The notes beneath the pieces are model-generated. The model made no database searches. It saw nothing but the letters and a program-made list of their open reading frames with translations, and was not told where the DNA came from. A stretch of 32,000 bases of DNA, from assembly GCA_050246755.1 (NCBI GenBank), contig JBFWVL010000001.1, positions 340,421-372,420 of the forward strand, in the 5' to 3' direction. The DNA comes from Bacteriovoracia bacterium (GTDB taxonomy: Bacteria > Bdellovibrionota > UBA1018 > CAIPTA01). Positions 13,086 through 24,129 of this stretch are shown here, one piece after another. The position numbers were made by a program, and so were the translations under genes. Positions within the stretch are counted from its first letter, which is position 1. Each line of letters starts with the position of its first letter.

Positions 13086-13856
13086 CTATTTAGCGAGAAA
13101 CTCCACCTTACCCAATTGATCGAACGTGGCACTCACCGTATCGCCCGCACGAAAAGCCACGGCCGCGGTGGCGCCGCCCGCGAGCACGATGGATCCGGCC
13201 GGCAAAGATTCGCCCATGGCGCCCAGTAGCTTCACGAGCTCCAGCAGCGAAAGCAGGGGATTCCCCAGAATGGCGGCCGAAGACCCCTTTTGCGCGGCCG
13301 CTCCATTTTTTTCGAGCGTGATACCGATATTTTTTAGTTCGAGTTCCCCCGGTTTTTTCCTTACCGTACCGAGCACGAAGGCCGAGGAGGAGCAGTTGTC
13401 GGCCACCACGTCGGGCAGGGCGAAATCAAAATTCTCGAAACGAGAATCAATCACTTCGATCGCCCCGCATACGCTCTCGATCGCCGCAATGGCTTCGGCT
13501 TCGGAAGGATTGCCATGCAGCTCTTTACCCATCACGAAGGCAATCTCGGGTTCGGCCTTAGGATGAATTCTTCTTCCGAGCGTGAGCGTCGCGCCGCTCG
13601 CTATTTGCATGCGGTCGGTGAGGAAGCCGTGGATAGGGCTATCAATTCCCATTTGCTCCATCTTGGGCTTGGAGGTCATTCCCATCTTGCGGCCAACGAT
13701 CCGCGCGCCGCCTTTGAGGTGAAGGGCCATGAGCAAGCGCTGCACTTCGTAGCCCTGACCGAGCGAAAAACTCGGCTCTTCCACCGTAAACTTAATTACG
13801 GACTTTCCCGTTTGCTCCGCCGCGAACAATATTCCCGCGATTTCTTGCGCCTTCAT
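13086..13856 (-). CDS. 2-oxopent-4-enoate hydratase / 4-oxalocrotonate decarboxylase family enzyme (AmnE/AmnF, MhpD/XylI/XylJ type), paralog 2
   Basis: The track ORF starts at TTG 13868. I prefer ATG at 13856 (MKAQEIAG...), which has GGAG 6 nt upstream and sits 1 nt after the upstream stop. Motifs are YEVQ, RIVGRKMGMTSKPKMEQMGIDSPIHGFL and EPEIAF...EVIDSRF. Which paralog is the hydratase and which the decarboxylase cannot be told by eye. Confidence 0.85.
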   Translation of the reverse strand: MKAQEIAGILFAAEQTGKSVIKFTVEEPSFSLGQGYEVQRLLMALHLKGGARIVGRKMGMTSKPKMEQMGIDSPIHGFLTDRMQIASGATLTLGRRIHPKAEPEIAFVMGKELHGNPSEAEAIAAIESVCGAIEVIDSRFENFDFALPDVVADNCSSSAFVLGTVRKKPGELELKNIGITLEKNGAAAQKGSSAAILGNPLLSLLELVKLLGAMGESLPAGSIVLAGGATAAVAFRAGDTVSATFDQLGKVEFLAK

Positions 13857-13857
13857 T

Positions 13858-14637
13858 CTATTCTCCAAAAAAACAGTGCACGTTTCCGAGACCAGCGATT
13901 TCCACGTCTACCCTATCGCCCGCCTTCACCGGCATCACCGGCCCAAAGGCGCCGGAAAGAATCACTTCACCGGCTTTCAGTGCCACCCCGAATTTTCCGA
14001 GCGCATTCGCAAGCCAGGCCACCGCCAGGCAAGGGTGATCGAGGCAAGCCGCGCCGGTGCCGGTGGAAAGAATTTCCCCGTTAATTTTCAGGCTCATCTT
14101 GGCGAGGGTTAAATCCAGGGAGGAAAGCGAATGCTTTTCCGTGCCCAGCACAAAGTGCGAAGAAGAGGCGTTGTCGGCGATCGTGTCCTGGATCTTGATT
14201 TTCCAGTCGCGCACGCGGGAATCAATGATCTCGATCGAGGGAAGAATATAGTCCGTTGCGTGGATCACATCCTGCATCGTTATGCCGGGGCCTATCAAGT
14301 CGCTCTTGAGCACGAAGGCCACCTCGCCCTCCACCCGGGGCAAAAGGAGCTTGGCGCGGGAAAGGCTTCCGCCCGAGGAAATCTTCATGTCGGAAGTGAG
14401 GTAGCCGAAATCGGGCTCTTCCACGCCCAATTGTTTCTGCACTGCCCTAGAAGTAAGGCCGATTTTCTTCCCCACGAGGGTCAGGCCTTCTTGCTCGAGG
14501 CGGCGCTTGAGGTTAATCTCGGACACGGAGTAGGCGTTGCCGATCGTGATTCCGGGAAACTGGGCGGTGAGCGGTTCCACCGGCGAGGCCGAGAGGCGGG
14601 CCTGAAAAAGGGCGTCAGCTAAGGAAGTAAGATTCAT
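13858..14637 (-). CDS. 2-oxopent-4-enoate hydratase / 4-oxalocrotonate decarboxylase family enzyme (AmnE/AmnF, MhpD/XylI/XylJ type), paralog 1
   Basis: 259 aa. Motifs are YSVSE, LVGKKIGLTSRAVQKQLGVEEPDFGYL, EGEVAFVL...IEIIDSRV and ADNASSSHFVLG. Same family as the downstream gene, the usual adjacent-pair arrangement in meta-cleavage operons. Confidence 0.85.
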   Translation of the reverse strand: MNLTSLADALFQARLSASPVEPLTAQFPGITIGNAYSVSEINLKRRLEQEGLTLVGKKIGLTSRAVQKQLGVEEPDFGYLTSDMKISSGGSLSRAKLLLPRVEGEVAFVLKSDLIGPGITMQDVIHATDYILPSIEIIDSRVRDWKIKIQDTIADNASSSHFVLGTEKHSLSSLDLTLAKMSLKINGEILSTGTGAACLDHPCLAVAWLANALGKFGVALKAGEVILSGAFGPVMPVKAGDRVDVEIAGLGNVHCFFGE

Positions 14638-21326: not shown

Positions 21327-22226
21327 ATGGCCGAAAAAGGAAAAATCGTCGCCGGGGTTTTAGCCCCCCACCCGCCCCACCTCGTGTACGGGGAAAATCC
21401 AAAACAGAACGAGCCGCGCTCGGAATGCGGCTGGGAAAATTTACGCTGGGCCTATGAGCGCTGCCGGAAGAATATCCTCGCGCTAAAACCCGACGTACTG
21501 CTCGTACATTCTCCTCACTGGATGACGATGGTGGGCCACCACGTGCTCGGCGTGGAAAAATTCAAGGGCCTCTCGGTGGATCCGATTTTCCCCCACCTCT
21601 TTCGCTATAACTACGACCTGAAAGTAGATGTGGAGCTTTCCCTCGAGATCGCCAAGCAAATCGAAGCCCAAGGCATGATCACGAAGGTGATGAAGAATCC
21701 TGATTTCCGCATCGACTACGGAACGATTTGCTCCCTCCATCTCATCAATCCGGCCTGGGATATTCCAATCGTCTCGATTTCTTCCAATAATTCTCCCTAT
21801 TATTTCTCTAACGAAGTAGGCCAGGAGCAGATGATGAAGCTTGGCCAGGCCACGAAGCACGCGATCGAGAAAACCGGGCGCCGCGCGGTGCTGCTTGCGT
21901 CGAATTCCCTCTCGCACCGCCACTTTACGAGCGAGCCCGAAATTCCTGAAGACATGAGCTTTGAACACGTCTACCACCACGGGCAATACCTGTGGGACAT
22001 GCAGATGATCAAGCTCATGCGCGAAGGCCGCGCCAAGGAATTGCTCGCCGTGCTCCCGGAGTTCATCGATATGGCCTCGGCCGAAGTGAAAGCCGGCGCG
22101 CTCGCCTGGATGCTCTCGGCGCTCGACGTGCCCACCTACCCCGGCATCGTGCACGGCTACGGTTCCGTGATCGGCACCGGCAACGCGGTGGTGGAATGGA
22201 ACCAAGAAACGAGGGGCGCGCAATGA
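21327..22226 (+). CDS. amnB: 2-aminophenol 1,6-dioxygenase beta (catalytic) subunit, LigB-type extradiol dioxygenase
   Basis: [56 protein letters not shown] and NSLSHRHF closely match AmnB as I remember it, including the His ligand motifs. ATG 21327 is preferred; the track uses GTG 21318. Confidence 0.85.
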
Positions 22227-23497
22227 TCGTAAAAGCCCTGGTGGTGCCCGGTCACCCGCAAATCCTTCTCAGTCCCGAGCAAAATCCCGGCTGGAAAAAA
22301 CTCCACGCTGCCTACGCCGAGGCCAGGAAAGAAATCGAATCCACCGAGGCCGATTTGATTCTCTACTACTCCACCCAGTGGCTCTCGGTGCTCGGCTATA
22401 CTTTCCAAACCGATCCCAATCCAGAATGGGTGCACGTGGACCAAAACTTCCACGATCTCGGCTCCATGCCCTACAAATTCAAATGCGACGTGGAATTCGC
22501 CAAAGCCTACGCTGCCGAGGTAAAAGCCGCCGGCCACCACACCATGCTGGCGAACTACCGCGGATTCCCGATCGATACGGGCACCATCGTGGCCCAGAAA
22601 CTGCTGAACCCGAATAACCGCTTACCCGCCGCCATGGTGAGCTGCAATATGTACGCGGAAAAAAATGAGACGATCGAGCTAGGCCGCGCGGGCTTGCGTG
22701 CGCTCGAGAAATCGGGCAAACGCGCCGTGGTGGTTTTGGTCTCGGCGCTCTCGAATCGCTACTTCGTGAAAGAGATCGCGGCGAAAGACGATCGTATTTC
22801 TTCGGCCAAGGACGACGAGTGGAACCGCAAGATCGTGGAGCTCCTCGGCGAAGGCCGCCTCGAAGATACCGCGCAAGTAGCCCGCGATTTTGGCCGCGAA
22901 GCCAACGGCGATATGGGCTTCAAAGGAATCTGGTGGCTCGACGGGATCTGCGGCGAGACGAACGAGTTTTCGGGCAAAGTTTTCGGCTACGAACCCGTGT
23001 GGGGAACCGGCGCCACCCTCGTTTCCCTGAGCCCCAAGGGAAAAGTGAAATCCGTTCCCCTGGCACCCAAAGAAACGAAAAGCGAAAACCAAATCGTGGA
23101 TGCCGCCAAAGCCCCCGAACCCGTGGGCGCCTATCCCCACGCGCGCCGCGAAGGAGAATTCCTGTTTCTCTCGGGCGTAGGGCCCCGCGAACGCGGAAAA
23201 AAAGAGATTCCCGGAGTGAAGCTCGATAGCAGTGGACAAATCCTTTCCTACGATGTGGAAATACAGACCCGCTCAGTGATCGCCAACGTGAAAACCATCC
23301 TCGAAGCTTCCGGATCTTCCCTCGATAAAATCGTGGACGTGCAGGTTTTTCTCACCGACATGAAGAAAGATTTCCCCACGTTCAATAAAATCTACGCGGA
23401 GCACTTCGCGAAAATCCAAGCCACCCGCACCACGATCGAAGTGGGATCCCTGCCCACGCCGATCGCCGTGGAATTCAAAGTGATTGCGCGCGTATGA
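22223..23497 (+). CDS. Fusion protein: 2-aminophenol 1,6-dioxygenase alpha (non-catalytic, AmnA-like) domain + RidA/YjgF-family (2-aminomuconate deaminase, AmnD-like) domain
   Basis: The track ORF 21992.. is trimmed to ATG 22223 (ATGA overlap with the amnB stop); 424 aa. Residues 1-~268 are LigB-like but degenerate at the AmnB His motifs ([19 protein letters not shown]). A Lys/Pro linker follows. Residues ~296-424 (nt ~23108-23494) are RidA-like ([11 protein letters not shown]...LFLSGVGP...[34 protein letters not shown]...[19 protein letters not shown]). Confidence 0.8.
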
Positions 23498-24129
23498 AGA
23501 TTTGGGACATCAGCCCGGTGATTTCCGAGAAGACGGCCGTATTTCCCGGCGACGTGCCTTTTTCCCGCGAAGTTTCGATGGACACGAAAAAAGGCCACCA
23601 CCTCACCCTCTCGGCCATTCGTTCCACGCTGCATATCGGCGCGCACGCCGACGCCGGCAATCATTATCATAAAGAGGGAAAAGGCGTGGAGGCGCGGCCC
23701 CTCGAATCCTACCTGGGCGACTGTGAAGTGATCGCCGTAAAGCTTCCCCGTGGTGCCCGTATCGGAATCGAGCATTTGAACGGAAGAATCCCGCTCGCCC
23801 CCCGCGTGCTCTTCAAAACAAATTCTTTTCCCGATCCCGATCAATGGAACAATGATTTCAATTCTCTCTCGCCCGAGCTGATCGAGTTCCTCGCCGACCG
23901 CGGCGCTATGCTCGTGGGTATCGACACTCCGAGCGTAGATCCCGTGGATTCCAAAGCCCTCGAAAGCCACCAGGCGCTGCACCGCAGAAATCTCGCCGTG
24001 CTCGAGGGAATCACGCTGGAACAGGTAACGGAAGGCGTGTACACCCTGGTCGCTTTGCCGCTGCGAATGAAAGACGCTGACGCTTCGCCGGTTCGTGCTA
24101 TCCTTATAAACAAAGAAACGTTGTTGTGA
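23494..24129 (+). CDS. kynB: Kynurenine formamidase (arylformamidase, cyclase family)
   Basis: 211 aa. [23 protein letters not shown] and the metal motif LHIGAHADAGNHY are typical of bacterial KynB, as is the C-terminal GIDTPSVDP. ATGA overlap with the upstream stop. Confidence 0.9.
   Translation: MKIWDISPVISEKTAVFPGDVPFSREVSMDTKKGHHLTLSAIRSTLHIGAHADAGNHYHKEGKGVEARPLESYLGDCEVIAVKLPRGARIGIEHLNGRIPLAPRVLFKTNSFPDPDQWNNDFNSLSPELIEFLADRGAMLVGIDTPSVDPVDSKALESHQALHRRNLAVLEGITLEQVTEGVYTLVALPLRMKDADASPVRAILINKETLL

What the first reader, a model, noticed from the sequence alone, without database searches (positions are those of the whole stretch)
13086..24129. kynA/kynB wired to a 2-aminophenol (amn) meta-cleavage pathway without KMO, kynureninase, HAAO or ACMSD: candidate undescribed tryptophan-to-2-aminophenol route
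Seen in the sequence:
- The cluster holds tryptophan 2,3-dioxygenase (14688-15557) and kynurenine formamidase (23494-24129).
- It also holds AmnB (21327-22226), an AmnA-RidA fusion (22223-23497), an AMS/HMS-type aldehyde dehydrogenase (18856-20298) and two MhpD/4-oxalocrotonate-decarboxylase family paralogs (13086-14637).
- Several of these genes are joined by overlapping start/stop codons.

Established knowledge:
- The known bacterial kynurenine-to-2-aminomuconate route needs kynurenine 3-monooxygenase, kynureninase, a cupin-type 3-hydroxyanthranilate 3,4-dioxygenase and ACMS decarboxylase. I recognise none of these in the window.
- The ring-cleavage enzyme present is the heterodimeric LigB-type AmnAB, whose described substrate is 2-aminophenol.

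The only unassigned enzymes in the cluster are a luciferase-like flavin monooxygenase 4 nt downstream of kynA and an asparaginase-II-family hydrolase translationally coupled to amnC.

Inference:
- Kynurenine is an aryl ketone. Baeyer-Villiger insertion with aryl migration would give the beta-(2-aminophenyl) ester of L-aspartate.
- That ester could rearrange by O-to-N acyl shift to N4-(2-hydroxyphenyl)-asparagine.
- A beta-aspartyl hydrolase would release L-aspartate plus 2-aminophenol, which is the AmnAB substrate.
- This closes the pathway with exactly the genes present. Only the final aldolase and acetaldehyde dehydrogenase steps are missing from the window.
Basis: partly seen in the sequence, partly recalled or inferred. 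Interest (0 to 1): 0.85.

Follow-up and report, generated by a model that had tools for sequence, protein, structure and literature searches.

The report
Possible new tryptophan-to-2-aminophenol breakdown route
This gene cluster joins the first two tryptophan-breakdown enzymes to a complete 2-aminophenol ring-cleavage pathway through two uncharacterised enzymes that stay together across several bacterial phyla, which points to an undescribed, still untested way of degrading tryptophan.

Summary

- **Known ends of the pathway.** The AmnB-like protein is 60% identical to solved 2-aminophenol 1,6-dioxygenase beta subunits. The aldehyde dehydrogenase is closest to 2-aminomuconate-semialdehyde dehydrogenases. 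The domain fused to AmnA is closest to 2-aminomuconate deaminase. No KMO, kynureninase, HAAO or ACMSD domain was found in the window.
- **Neighbourhood test.** The luciferase-like monooxygenase (LLM) belongs to a small, isolated, highly conserved family. In 27 of 36 full-flank genome loci it lies with the asparaginase-II homolog and amnBA, and in 34 of 36 with the dehydrogenase. Starting from the hydrolase, 46 of 48 metagenome loci carry the LLM next door.
- **Distant relatives.** LLMs only 35-43% identical still pair with an asparaginase-II gene. One of these is fused to kynurenine formamidase beside a tryptophan dioxygenase. Two others pair with PrnB-type heme enzymes.

This favours LLM oxygen insertion into (N-formyl)kynurenine followed by beta-aspartyl hydrolysis to aspartate plus 2-aminophenol.

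Nothing biochemical is shown. kynA lies nearby in only a minority of loci. A conserved SDR partner, absent from this window, is unexplained. I found no publication describing the route.

The parts
13086..13868 (-). 4-oxalocrotonate (2-oxo-3-hexenedioate) decarboxylase-like gene (AmnE/DmpH-like)
   Evidence: PF01557. The best NCBIfam model is TIGR03218 dmpH (244 bits, below the 350 cutoff). It is conserved next to kynA in the window's clade.
13858..14637 (-). 2-oxopent-4-enoate hydratase-like gene (AmnF/DmpE-like)
   Evidence: PF01557. The best NCBIfam model is TIGR03220 dmpE (323 bits, below the 409 cutoff). It overlaps the neighbouring paralog by 11 nt.
14688..15557 (+). Tryptophan 2,3-dioxygenase (kynA)
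   Evidence: PF03301, E 1.7e-52; TIGR03036, 274 bits. It lies directly upstream of the LLM here and in L001, L004, L006, L008, L025 and L093 (L003 has an about 2-kb gap). In Holophagae loci an SDR lies between kynA and the LLM.
15562..16746 (+). Luciferase-like (TIM-barrel, presumably FMN-dependent) monooxygenase of a small isolated family; proposed (N-formyl)kynurenine Baeyer-Villiger/Dakin-type oxygenase
   Evidence: PF00296 at 32 bits only and no NCBIfam model. Only 296 hits at E<=1e-3 among 1.84 billion representative proteins. Orthologs are 60-90% identical across phyla. The AlphaFold2 model has pLDDT 87.6. Foldseek matches LLM-class monooxygenases (RslO1, luciferases, 3,6-diketocamphane monooxygenase) at 14-19% identity.
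17828..18859 (+). Class-3 (R. etli type) asparaginase homolog; proposed beta-aspartyl ester/anilide hydrolase releasing L-aspartate and 2-aminophenol
   Evidence: PF06089, E 4.8e-49. E 1.3e-15 to ReAIV 8CLY. Ser53, Lys56, Ser81 (SHN motif) and Lys243 are invariant in 56 orthologs. The metal-site positions are Cys129, Glu132 and Cys183. The LLM is adjacent in 46 of 48 metagenome loci.
18856..20298 (+). 2-aminomuconate-6-semialdehyde dehydrogenase-like ALDH (AmnC/NbaE-like)
   Evidence: PF00171. The best solved relatives are AMSDH 4NPI and 4I1W, E 7e-137. It has a TTGA overlap with the hydrolase gene. It is near the LLM in 34 of 36 full loci.
21327..22226 (+). 2-aminophenol 1,6-dioxygenase beta (catalytic) subunit, AmnB
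   Evidence: E 9.9e-124 to CnbCb 3VSG_B, with 60% identity over 293 ungapped residues. It also matches 8IHG_A and 7TXY_B.
22223..23497 (+). AmnA (alpha subunit) fused to a RidA-type 2-aminomuconate deaminase domain (AmnD-like)
   Evidence: Residues 2-268 match alpha subunits 7TXY_A (E 2.7e-57) and 3VSG_A. For residues 296-422 the best solved match is 6IZH, 2-aminomuconate deaminase (E 5.2e-23). The fusion is present in 20 of 43 orthologs.
23494..24129 (+). Kynurenine (aryl)formamidase, kynB
   Evidence: PF04199; TIGR03035 at 207 bits against a cutoff of 223. It has an ATGA overlap with amnA-ridA.

Best explanation
The cluster most likely encodes a tryptophan catabolic route that bypasses KMO, kynureninase, HAAO and ACMSD.

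Proposed steps:
1. KynA opens the indole ring to give N-formylkynurenine.
2. KynB removes the formyl group. This may happen at this point, or later on 2-formamidophenol.
3. The LLM, using reduced FMN and O2, inserts oxygen between the ketone carbon and the electron-rich o-aminophenyl ring (a Baeyer-Villiger/Dakin-type reaction). The product is the beta-(2-aminophenyl) ester of L-aspartate, which may rearrange to N4-(2-hydroxyphenyl)-L-asparagine.
4. The class-3 asparaginase homolog hydrolyses this beta-aspartyl ester or anilide to L-aspartate plus 2-aminophenol.
5. AmnBA cleaves 2-aminophenol to 2-aminomuconate semialdehyde.
6. The ALDH oxidises the semialdehyde, and the fused RidA domain deaminates 2-aminomuconate to 4-oxalocrotonate.
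7. The two MhpD-family enzymes decarboxylate and hydrate it.

What is shown: the family identities of all the enzymes, and the conserved genetic coupling of LLM, hydrolase, ALDH and AmnBA with TDO/formamidase.

What is inferred: the substrates and chemistry of the LLM and the hydrolase, the order of deformylation, and the flavin requirement.
For: 1. Both ends of the pathway are firmly identified: TDO and formamidase; AmnB 60% identical to solved 2-aminophenol dioxygenases; AmnA plus an AmnD-like domain; an AMSDH-like ALDH; DmpH/DmpE-like enzymes. Only the kynurenine-to-2-aminophenol gap is open, and exactly two unassigned enzymes are conserved with the block.

2. LLM-centred synteny. Of 36 genome loci with full flanks, 34 have the ALDH, and 27 have AsnII, amnB and amnA together (the other 9 lack all three). 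kynA is present in 11 and kynB in 10. Two different gene orders and at least three phyla are represented.

3. Hydrolase-centred synteny. Of 48 metagenome loci with at least 3 kb upstream, 46 have the LLM adjacent, with a median gap of 138 bp.

4. Distant LLM relatives keep the partnership:
   - P0129 (43% identity) and P0132 (40%) are LLM-AsnII pairs in otherwise unrelated surroundings.
   - P0134 (39%) is followed by a single 530-aa Asparaginase_II+Cyclase (formamidase) fusion, beside a TDO gene.
   - P0143 (35%) sits in a TDO-AsnII-LLM triad with overlapping genes and no ring-cleavage genes.
   - P0124 and P0130 are next to PrnB-family heme enzymes. I recall from memory that PrnB is related to IDO/TDO; this was not tested here. 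One of these loci also has an Abhydrolase_3 esterase.

5. The hydrolase keeps the catalytic Ser-Lys tandems of class-3 asparaginases and, in the window protein, a Cys/Glu/Cys version of the metal site. In ReAV that site anchors the alpha-amino and alpha-carboxylate groups of L-Asn (PMC12951835, PMC8602277). This fits a substrate with an aspartyl head group.

6. Kynurenine is asparagine with an aryl group in place of the amide NH2 (established chemistry). LLM-class enzymes performing Baeyer-Villiger reactions are documented, for example diketocamphane monooxygenases, AbmE2 and the progesterone LLM (PMC12239570). One of them, 4UWM, is among the structural matches.
Against: - There are no biochemical data for any member of this LLM family or this hydrolase subfamily.
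- The structural matches do not distinguish Baeyer-Villiger activity from other LLM chemistries.
- kynA is within 10 kb in only 11 of 36 genome loci and 0 of 24 full metagenome loci; kynB is within 10 kb in 10 of 36 and 3 of 24.
- Some lineages have LLM-AsnII(-ALDH) with no amnBA within 10 kb (L108, L117, L118, L120). Others have kynA-SDR-LLM-ALDH-RidA with no AsnII or amnBA nearby (L032, L047, L050, L072).
- An SDR lacking the YxxxK motif lies beside the LLM in 57 of 80 genome loci, overlapping the LLM start in most, and has no role in the scheme.
- No flavin reductase is present in the window.
- The metal-site residues of the hydrolase vary among orthologs.
- Canonical kynurenine-pathway genes elsewhere in the genome cannot be excluded.
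Confidence: 0.58

Rival explanations
1. The LLM is a non-canonical kynurenine 3-hydroxylase. AmnBA cleaves 3-hydroxykynurenine, itself an o-aminophenol. The asparaginase homolog then hydrolyses the beta-aspartyl C-C bond of the ring-fission product, releasing aspartate and 2-aminomuconate semialdehyde.
For: It uses the same gene set and also yields aspartate. I recall from memory that AmnBA-type enzymes tolerate small ring substituents. AsnII and amnBA co-occur perfectly in the genome loci (27 with both, 9 with neither).
Against: - The LLM and AsnII are immediate neighbours, including where no dioxygenase lies within 8-10 kb. That fits consecutive steps, not steps separated by the dioxygenase.
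- Aromatic hydroxylation is unusual for LLM-class enzymes (general knowledge).
- AmnB is 60% identical to enzymes that act on 2-aminophenol or 2-amino-5-chlorophenol, so a much bulkier substrate is unlikely.
- C-C hydrolysis by a class-3 asparaginase fold has no precedent.
Confidence: 0.08
2. The conserved block (SDR)-LLM-AsnII-ALDH-AmnBA degrades some other aryl ketone, anilide or o-aminophenol precursor. Candidates are 2-aminoacetophenone-like or plant- or prey-derived compounds. The kyn genes are then only loosely or secondarily associated.
For: Most loci lack kynA within 10 kb (25 of 36 genome loci; 24 of 24 full metagenome loci). FadL/TodX-type aromatic-uptake channels lie next to the cluster in Acidobacteriota. 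The unexplained SDR hints at an additional step.
Against: - TDO or a PrnB-family gene lies beside the LLM in at least five independent arrangements and lineages: the window clade, Holophagae/Sulfidibacter, Planctomycetota L040, and L085, L088, L089 and L092.
- An AsnII-formamidase fusion exists.
- The expected chance of a single-copy gene lying within 10 kb of another is about 0.5% for a 4-Mb genome (my estimate).
- The hydrolase belongs to a family whose only characterised substrates are L-Asn-like (PMC8602277).
Confidence: 0.14
3. The Baeyer-Villiger insertion happens on the alkyl side, giving O-anthraniloyl-serine. Alternatively, the hydrolase cleaves kynurenine directly. Either way the module would be a PLP-independent kynureninase substitute yielding anthranilate (or aniline), and the amn genes would serve another purpose.
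For: An LLM plus a hydrolase could in principle do this. The LLM-AsnII pair occurs without amnBA in several lineages.
Against: - No anthranilate or aniline catabolic genes were seen in any locus.
- amnBA is the most frequent downstream partner.
- Migratory aptitude favours the electron-rich aryl group (established chemistry).
- An anthraniloyl ester is not an asparagine-like substrate.
Confidence: 0.05
4. The asparaginase homolog is an ordinary L-asparaginase or a second formamidase. The LLM has an unrelated role, and the juxtaposition has no pathway meaning.
For: The hydrolase retains the full catalytic apparatus of class-3 asparaginases.
Against: The LLM is adjacent in 46 of 48 loci. Co-occurrence with amnBA is perfect in the genome set. 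Fusion to a genuine cyclase-type formamidase makes a second formamidase role redundant. The subfamily carries a distinctive conserved Arg-rich segment (QFGRQxRRPRRW) at a position where ReAIV reads differently.
Confidence: 0.05

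Closest known systems
2-aminophenol meta-cleavage pathway (amn of Pseudomonas sp. AP-3; nbz; cnb of Comamonas sp. CNB-1)
   Same: It has heterodimeric LigB-type AmnBA (60% identity to CnbCb), a 2-aminomuconate-semialdehyde dehydrogenase, a RidA-type 2-aminomuconate deaminase, and a 4-oxalocrotonate decarboxylase and hydratase.
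   Different: In the described pathways 2-aminophenol comes from nitrobenzene or chloronitrobenzene reduction and rearrangement, or is supplied directly. Here it is proposed to come from tryptophan. The deaminase is fused to AmnA. The aldolase and acetaldehyde dehydrogenase are not in the window.
Bacterial kynurenine-to-2-aminomuconate pathway (TDO, formamidase, KMO, kynureninase, HAAO, ACMSD, AMSDH, deaminase; e.g. Cupriavidus, Burkholderia, P. fluorescens)
   Same: It shares the first two enzymes. It also shares the convergence point, 2-aminomuconate semialdehyde, followed by AMSDH and a RidA-type deaminase.
   Different: The four middle enzymes are absent from the window. They are proposed to be replaced by the LLM, a class-3 asparaginase homolog and AmnBA. 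The side chain would leave as aspartate instead of alanine plus CO2.
4-hydroxyacetophenone catabolism of Pseudomonas fluorescens ACB (HAPMO Baeyer-Villiger monooxygenase, aryl esterase, two-subunit hydroquinone dioxygenase, semialdehyde dehydrogenase). Recalled from memory, not tested here.
   Same: The logic is the same: aryl ketone to aryl ester by oxygen insertion with aryl migration, hydrolysis to a phenol, extradiol-type ring cleavage, then semialdehyde oxidation.
   Different: HAPMO is a single-component FAD/NADPH type I BVMO and its esterase is unrelated. Here the oxygenase is LLM-class and the hydrolase is an asparaginase homolog. The acyl part would be an amino acid.
LLM-class (type II) Baeyer-Villiger monooxygenases: 2,5- and 3,6-diketocamphane monooxygenases, AbmE2, progesterone LLM of Caenibius tardaugens (PMC12239570)
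   Same: They share the TIM-barrel luciferase-like fold. 4UWM is among the Foldseek matches. Such enzymes can work with a flavin reductase encoded elsewhere (PMC12239570).
   Different: Identity is only 14-19%. The family is isolated in sequence space (296 hits in 1.84 billion representatives). No activity has been demonstrated.
Class 3 L-asparaginases ReAIV and ReAV of Rhizobium etli
   Same: The fold family is the same (PF06089). Both Ser-Lys tandems are invariant. The two Cys metal ligands are retained in the window protein.
   Different: Similarity is distant (E 1e-15). The ligand equivalent to Lys138 is Glu, His or Lys. The Cys pair is replaced by Ser/Asp in 16 of 56 orthologs. There is a subfamily-specific Arg-rich segment. 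The gene is obligately linked to the LLM.

Membership tests
2-aminophenol (amn-type) meta-cleavage pathway | Heterodimeric LigB-type 2-aminophenol 1,6-dioxygenase (catalytic beta subunit plus alpha subunit) | tested here: met
   AmnB matches 3VSG_B at E 9.9e-124 with 60% identity. The AmnA domain matches 7TXY_A at E 2.7e-57.
2-aminophenol (amn-type) meta-cleavage pathway | 2-aminomuconate-6-semialdehyde dehydrogenase and RidA-type 2-aminomuconate deaminase | tested here: met
   The best solved relatives of the ALDH are AMSDH 4NPI and 4I1W (E 7e-137). The best solved relative of the RidA domain is 6IZH, 2-aminomuconate deaminase (E 5.2e-23).
2-aminophenol (amn-type) meta-cleavage pathway | 4-oxalocrotonate decarboxylase and 2-oxopent-4-enoate hydratase | tested here: inconclusive
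   The best NCBIfam models are dmpH and dmpE respectively, but both score below the equivalog cutoffs.
2-aminophenol (amn-type) meta-cleavage pathway | 4-hydroxy-2-oxovalerate aldolase and acylating acetaldehyde dehydrogenase | tested here: not met
   No such domains were found in any large ORF of the window. They may lie elsewhere in the genome.
Canonical bacterial kynurenine pathway | Tryptophan 2,3-dioxygenase and kynurenine formamidase | tested here: met
   PF03301 with TIGR03036, and PF04199 with TIGR03035.
Canonical bacterial kynurenine pathway | KMO, kynureninase, cupin HAAO and ACMSD | tested here: not met
   None is in the 32-kb window. None appeared among the gene families recurring in at least 5 of the 80 related genome loci or in the Pfam-annotated neighbourhoods. 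The whole genome cannot be tested with these tools.
LLM-class (type II) Baeyer-Villiger monooxygenases | Luciferase-like TIM-barrel fold | tested here: met
   The AlphaFold2 model has pLDDT 87.6. Foldseek gives probability 1.0 for RslO1, luciferases and 3,6-DKCMO, with TM-scores of 0.6-0.76.
LLM-class (type II) Baeyer-Villiger monooxygenases | Use of reduced FMN from a separate NAD(P)H:flavin reductase | not testable with these tools
   No reductase gene is in the window. A Fre/FNR-like gene lies nearby in 17 Bdellovibrionales loci, and a Tyr-less SDR is coupled to the LLM in 57 loci. The role of each is unproven.
LLM-class (type II) Baeyer-Villiger monooxygenases | Oxygen insertion next to a ketone | not testable with these tools
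   This is inferred only from the pathway gap and the genetic linkage.
Class 3 L-asparaginases (PF06089) | Two Ser-Lys tandems (ReAV Ser48-Lys51 and Ser80-Lys263) | tested here: met
   Ser53, Lys56, Ser81 and Lys243 are invariant in 56 orthologs (residue roles from PMC8602277).
Class 3 L-asparaginases (PF06089) | Zn site made of Cys, Lys and Cys | tested here: inconclusive
   The window protein has Cys129, Glu132 and Cys183. Among the orthologs, Cys/Cys occurs in 39-40 of 56 and Ser/Asp in 16. The third ligand is Glu in 22, Lys in 18 and His in 14.
Class 3 L-asparaginases (PF06089) | L-asparagine amidohydrolase activity | not testable with these tools
The genomic context argues for a different beta-aspartyl substrate.

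The most novel reading that the evidence does not exclude
A third, previously undescribed route of aerobic tryptophan catabolism exists and is widespread in Bdellovibrionota, Acidobacteriota and other phyla.

- A dedicated, sequence-isolated LLM family acts as a kynurenine (or N-formylkynurenine) Baeyer-Villiger/Dakin oxygenase.
- A specialised class-3 asparaginase homolog releases L-aspartate and 2-aminophenol.
- The TDO-LLM-hydrolase module is also reused outside catabolism, as in the L085 biosynthetic-like operon and the PrnB-linked relatives.
- The Tyr-less SDR coupled to the LLM would be a new type of partner, either a flavin reductase or a 2-aminomuconate-branch reductase.
Probability: 0.5. 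Interest if true: 0.85.

Novelty: new variant of a known kind. Interest (0 to 1): 0.78.

Why it matters
Tryptophan degradation through kynurenine is textbook metabolism with a fixed set of middle enzymes: KMO, kynureninase, HAAO and ACMSD.

If this route is real, those four would be replaced by an oxygen-insertion and hydrolysis pair plus a 2-aminophenol dioxygenase.

- **Carbon economy.** The side chain would be recovered as aspartate rather than alanine plus CO2.
- **Role of amn genes.** It would give a natural, non-xenobiotic role to amn-type 2-aminophenol genes.
- **New functions.** It would assign first functions to an orphan LLM family and to a subfamily of class-3 asparaginases.
- **Annotation.** Genome annotation of "incomplete" kynurenine pathways in Bdellovibrionota and Acidobacteriota would need revision.
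- **Biocatalysis.** It would offer a new enzymatic aryl-ketone-to-phenol conversion on an amino acid scaffold.

The hypothesis can be tested directly with four recombinant proteins and LC-MS.

Tried and rejected
- **LLM sequence searches were uninformative.** Against solved structures, the best hit to the LLM profile was a luciferase alpha chain at E 0.003. NCBIfam has no model for the LLM or the hydrolase.
- **Fold search does not resolve the chemistry.** It confirms the LLM fold, but the matches mix luciferases, epoxidase-type LLMs, F420 enzymes and a type II BVMO at similar scores.
- **SDR or Fre-like reductase in the window.** tblastn with up to 60 SDR and 17 Fre sequences found nothing at E<=1e-3.
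- **SDR and the MhpD pair as alternative downstream branches.** The anticorrelation is weak (1 of 27 against 3 of 9 loci), and Thermoanaerobaculia loci have neither. I left this as speculation.
- **SDR closest solved relatives.** They are uncharacterised structural-genomics entries and FabG-like enzymes, so no function could be transferred.
- **Literature.** Seven full-text searches combined kynurenine, Baeyer-Villiger, 2-aminophenol, luciferase-like, PrnB, amnB and formamidase. None found a paper describing this route. The library lacks most subscription journals, so prior description cannot be excluded.
- **Genome-wide search for kmo, kynU, nbaC and nbaD.** This was not possible.
- **Orphan relatives.** Two distant LLM relatives (P0123, P0127) sit alone with no pathway neighbours.

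Full report
**1. Observation**

| Coordinates | Strand | Identity |
|---|---|---|
| 13086-13868 | - | FAA-hydrolase/MhpD family; best model DmpH, 4-oxalocrotonate decarboxylase |
| 13858-14637 | - | Same family; best model DmpE, 2-oxopent-4-enoate hydratase |
| 14688-15557 | + | Tryptophan 2,3-dioxygenase |
| 15562-16746 | + | Weakly luciferase-like protein (LLM) |
| 17828-18859 | + | Asparaginase_II homolog |
| 18856-20298 | + | Aldehyde dehydrogenase |
| 21327-22226 | + | LigB-type subunit |
| 22223-23497 | + | LigB plus RidA fusion |
| 23494-24129 | + | Arylformamidase |

The junctions were read from the sequence. The kynA stop and LLM start are 4 nt apart. Four-base start/stop overlaps join AsnII/ALDH, ALDH/orf20295, orf20295/PTH2, amnB/amnA and amnA/kynB.

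The rest of the window is housekeeping: pantothenate genes, propionyl-CoA carboxylase-like genes and methylmalonyl-CoA mutase. It holds no KMO, kynureninase, HAAO, ACMSD, aldolase or acetaldehyde dehydrogenase domain.

Three unrelated genes are interleaved with the pathway genes: a secreted nuclease, a lipoprotein-like ORF and PTH2.

**2. The known parts**

Comparison with solved structures sharpens the assignments.

- AmnB matches the catalytic beta subunits of 2-aminophenol/2-amino-5-chlorophenol 1,6-dioxygenases (3VSG_B, 8IHG_A, 7TXY_B) at E about 1e-124. Identity is 60% over 293 ungapped residues.
- The N-terminal 270 residues of the next protein match the alpha subunits (E 2.7e-57). For its C-terminal domain the best solved relative is 2-aminomuconate deaminase 6IZH (E 5.2e-23). 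It is therefore an AmnA-AmnD fusion.
- The best solved relatives of the ALDH are the 2-aminomuconate-6-semialdehyde dehydrogenases (E 7e-137), ahead of all other ALDHs.

Kynurenine formation and 2-aminophenol meta-cleavage are thus both well supported. What lies between them is open.

**3. The two unassigned enzymes**

*The LLM.*
- It has no NCBIfam model and only a 32-bit Pfam match.
- An exhaustive HMMER search of 1.84 billion representative proteins returned only 296 hits at E<=1e-3, most of them fragments.
- Orthologs are nevertheless 60-90% identical across Bdellovibrionota, Acidobacteriota, Sericytochromatia and Planctomycetota. The family is small, isolated and strongly constrained.
- An AlphaFold2 model (pLDDT 87.6) is a luciferase-like TIM barrel. 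Foldseek matches RslO1, luciferases, a PKS/NRPS OX domain and the type II Baeyer-Villiger enzyme 3,6-diketocamphane monooxygenase at 14-19% identity. This supports an LLM-class flavin enzyme but does not identify the reaction.

*The hydrolase.*
- It is a distant homolog (E 1e-15) of the Rhizobium etli class-3 asparaginases.
- In 56 orthologs the residues equivalent to the two catalytic Ser-Lys tandems are invariant.
- The metal-site positions are Cys/Glu/Cys in the window protein and vary among orthologs.
- In ReAV the Zn site anchors the alpha-amino and alpha-carboxylate groups of L-Asn (PMC12951835; PMC8602277).

**4.

*Starting from the LLM.*
- 315 genome loci encode a relative, and 80 were fetched.
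- tblastn with the window proteins shows a recurring block in two gene orders: LLM-AsnII-ALDH-amnB-amnA(RidA) and LLM-ALDH-amnB-amnA-AsnII.
- Among the 36 loci with at least 5 kb upstream and 7 kb downstream, 34 have the ALDH. Twenty-seven have AsnII, amnB and amnA together; the other nine lack all three. kynA is present in 11, kynB in 10 and the MhpD pair in 4.
- Holophagae and Sulfidibacter corallicola carry kynA-SDR-LLM-ALDH-RidA(-kynB). In one case (L019) the AsnII and amnBA genes form a second operon nearby.

*Starting from the hydrolase.*
- 477 metagenome stretches encode a relative.
- Of 48 loci with at least 3 kb upstream, 46 carry the LLM next door, with a median gap of 138 bp.
- In the 24 full loci the LLM is present in 23, the ALDH in 22, amnB in 18, kynB in 3 and kynA in 0.

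**5. Distant relatives**

The most informative evidence comes from LLM homologs only 35-49% identical to the window protein.

| Homolog | Identity | Context |
|---|---|---|
| P0121 | 49% | Overlaps an ALDH gene |
| P0129 | 43% | LLM-Asparaginase_II pair among housekeeping genes |
| P0132 | 40% | LLM-Asparaginase_II pair among housekeeping genes |
| P0134 | 39% | Followed by one 530-aa protein with an Asparaginase_II domain and a cyclase-type formamidase domain; a TDO gene lies beside it (confirmed by my own Pfam scan) |
| P0143 | 35% | TDO-AsnII-LLM triad with overlapping genes, inside an operon with an adenylating enzyme, a PLP enzyme, an acetyltransferase and a transporter, but no ring-cleavage genes |
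| P0124 | 46% | Next to a PrnB-family heme enzyme |
| P0130 | 42% | Next to a PrnB-family heme enzyme, followed by an Abhydrolase_3 esterase |
| P0123, P0127 | 44%, 42% | Orphans with no pathway neighbours |

The minimal conserved unit is therefore LLM plus hydrolase, repeatedly attached to an indole-ring-opening heme enzyme and a formamidase.

**6. Mechanism**

Kynurenine is formally asparagine whose amide nitrogen is replaced by an o-aminophenyl group. An LLM flavin-peroxide attack on the ketone, with migration of the electron-rich aryl group (Baeyer-Villiger/Dakin chemistry), would give the beta-(2-aminophenyl) ester of aspartate. That ester can shift to N4-(2-hydroxyphenyl)asparagine. Either compound is an asparagine-like substrate for a class-3 asparaginase homolog, and the products would be aspartate and 2-aminophenol, the AmnBA substrate.

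LLM-class Baeyer-Villiger enzymes are documented, including ones whose reductase is encoded elsewhere (PMC12239570).

One sub-variant is suggested by the AsnII-formamidase fusion and by kynB lying after amnA rather than next to kynA. In it, the LLM acts on N-formylkynurenine and KynB deformylates 2-formamidophenol last.

The identities and linkages are shown. The substrates, the products and the flavin dependence are inferred.

**7. Rivals**

- *3-hydroxylation by the LLM, with AmnBA acting on 3-hydroxykynurenine and a C-C hydrolase role for AsnII.* This is disfavoured because LLM and AsnII are immediate neighbours even where no dioxygenase is nearby. AmnB is also very close to genuine 2-aminophenol enzymes.
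- *A non-tryptophan substrate.* This remains possible, because most loci lack kynA within 10 kb. However, TDO or PrnB linkage recurs in at least five independent arrangements, and the formamidase fusion is hard to explain otherwise.
- *Alkyl-side insertion or direct kynurenine hydrolysis to anthranilate or aniline.* This finds no supporting genes.
- *A plain asparaginase or second formamidase role.* This conflicts with the near-obligate LLM linkage and with the fusion.

**8. Unexplained**

- An NADPH-type SDR lacking the YxxxK dyad (S-N-x-x-R instead) lies beside the LLM in 57 of 80 genome loci and overlaps its start in most of them. It is present in 14 of 24 full metagenome loci. It is absent from this window. 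It may be the flavin reductase or a downstream reductase, and neither role is tested.
- A Fre/FNR-like gene lies divergently upstream in 17 Bdellovibrionales loci.

**9. Novelty and verdict**

Seven full-text searches found no description of a kynurenine-to-2-aminophenol route. The library is incomplete.

In logic, the closest known systems are the 4-hydroxyacetophenone pathway (BVMO, esterase, ring cleavage), the amn pathway and the canonical kynurenine pathway.

I rate this a new variant of known kinds of system. It has strong comparative-genomic support and no biochemical proof. My confidence in the specific mechanism is about 0.58, and interest is 0.78.

Noticed in passing
window 17037-17735, 20295-20813, 20810-21190: Three genes unrelated to the pathway are interleaved with it, two of them with 4-nt overlaps. 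They are a signal-peptide staphylococcal-type nuclease, a lipoprotein-like ORF with no Pfam match, and a PTH2-type peptidyl-tRNA hydrolase. The nuclease sits between the LLM and AsnII in close relatives too (L001-L003, L093, and the P0024 contig).
   Followed up: partly
L005-L080 (e.g. L022 4422-5222); absent from the window: An about 260-aa SDR lies immediately upstream of the LLM in 57 of 80 genome loci and overlaps the LLM start by 4 nt in most of them. Its canonical catalytic Tyr-x-x-x-Lys is replaced by S-N-x-x-R. Its closest solved structures are uncharacterised. Its role is unknown; it could be a flavin reductase or a downstream reductase.
   Followed up: partly
L092 9221-10813: A single 530-aa ORF fuses an Asparaginase_II domain (residues 10-274) to a cyclase-type kynurenine formamidase domain (residues 323-467). 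It lies directly after an LLM homolog and beside a TDO gene.
   Followed up: yes
L085 2014-14939: A biosynthetic-looking operon of overlapping genes contains a TDO-Asparaginase_II-LLM triad. Around it are an alpha/beta hydrolase, an AMP-binding enzyme, a PALP enzyme, DUF1611, an MR_MLE epimerase, an ACAD-like gene, a GNAT, an MFS transporter and a second LLM. There are no ring-cleavage genes. The module may be reused to make a 2-aminophenol-type building block.
   Followed up: no
L088 1-14391; L089 353-7511: LLM homologs (46% and 42% identity) sit next to PrnB-family heme enzymes. In L088 the region also holds bacterial microcompartment shell genes (three PF00936 genes plus EutN) around a TDO gene, PEP-utilising enzyme genes and tryptophan synthase genes. 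In L089 a GNAT, an Abhydrolase_3 esterase, an ATP-grasp enzyme and a class-V aminotransferase follow.
   Followed up: no
P0126 (1501 aa; library protein, no locus): A long, low-complexity, eukaryote-like protein fuses an LLM domain of this family to a class-I glutamine amidotransferase domain and an ApbE (flavin transferase) domain.
   Followed up: partly
L047 4893-6215; L070 7291-8775: FadL/TodX-type outer-membrane channels for hydrophobic or aromatic compounds lie just upstream of the cluster in Acidobacteriota loci.
   Followed up: no
L032 8274-13498 (Sulfidibacter corallicola M133, NZ_CP071793.1): A cultured isolate with a complete genome carries a kynA-SDR-LLM-ALDH-RidA operon. AsnII, amnBA and kynB are not within 10 kb. 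It is a practical organism for testing the pathway.
   Followed up: partly
window 26145-32000 and 8678-9373: Downstream of the cluster lie propionyl-CoA carboxylase-like genes (carboxyltransferase, biotin carboxylase, BCCP) and methylmalonyl-CoA mutase. Upstream lies a pirin/quercetinase-like bicupin. No link to the cluster was found.
   Followed up: no
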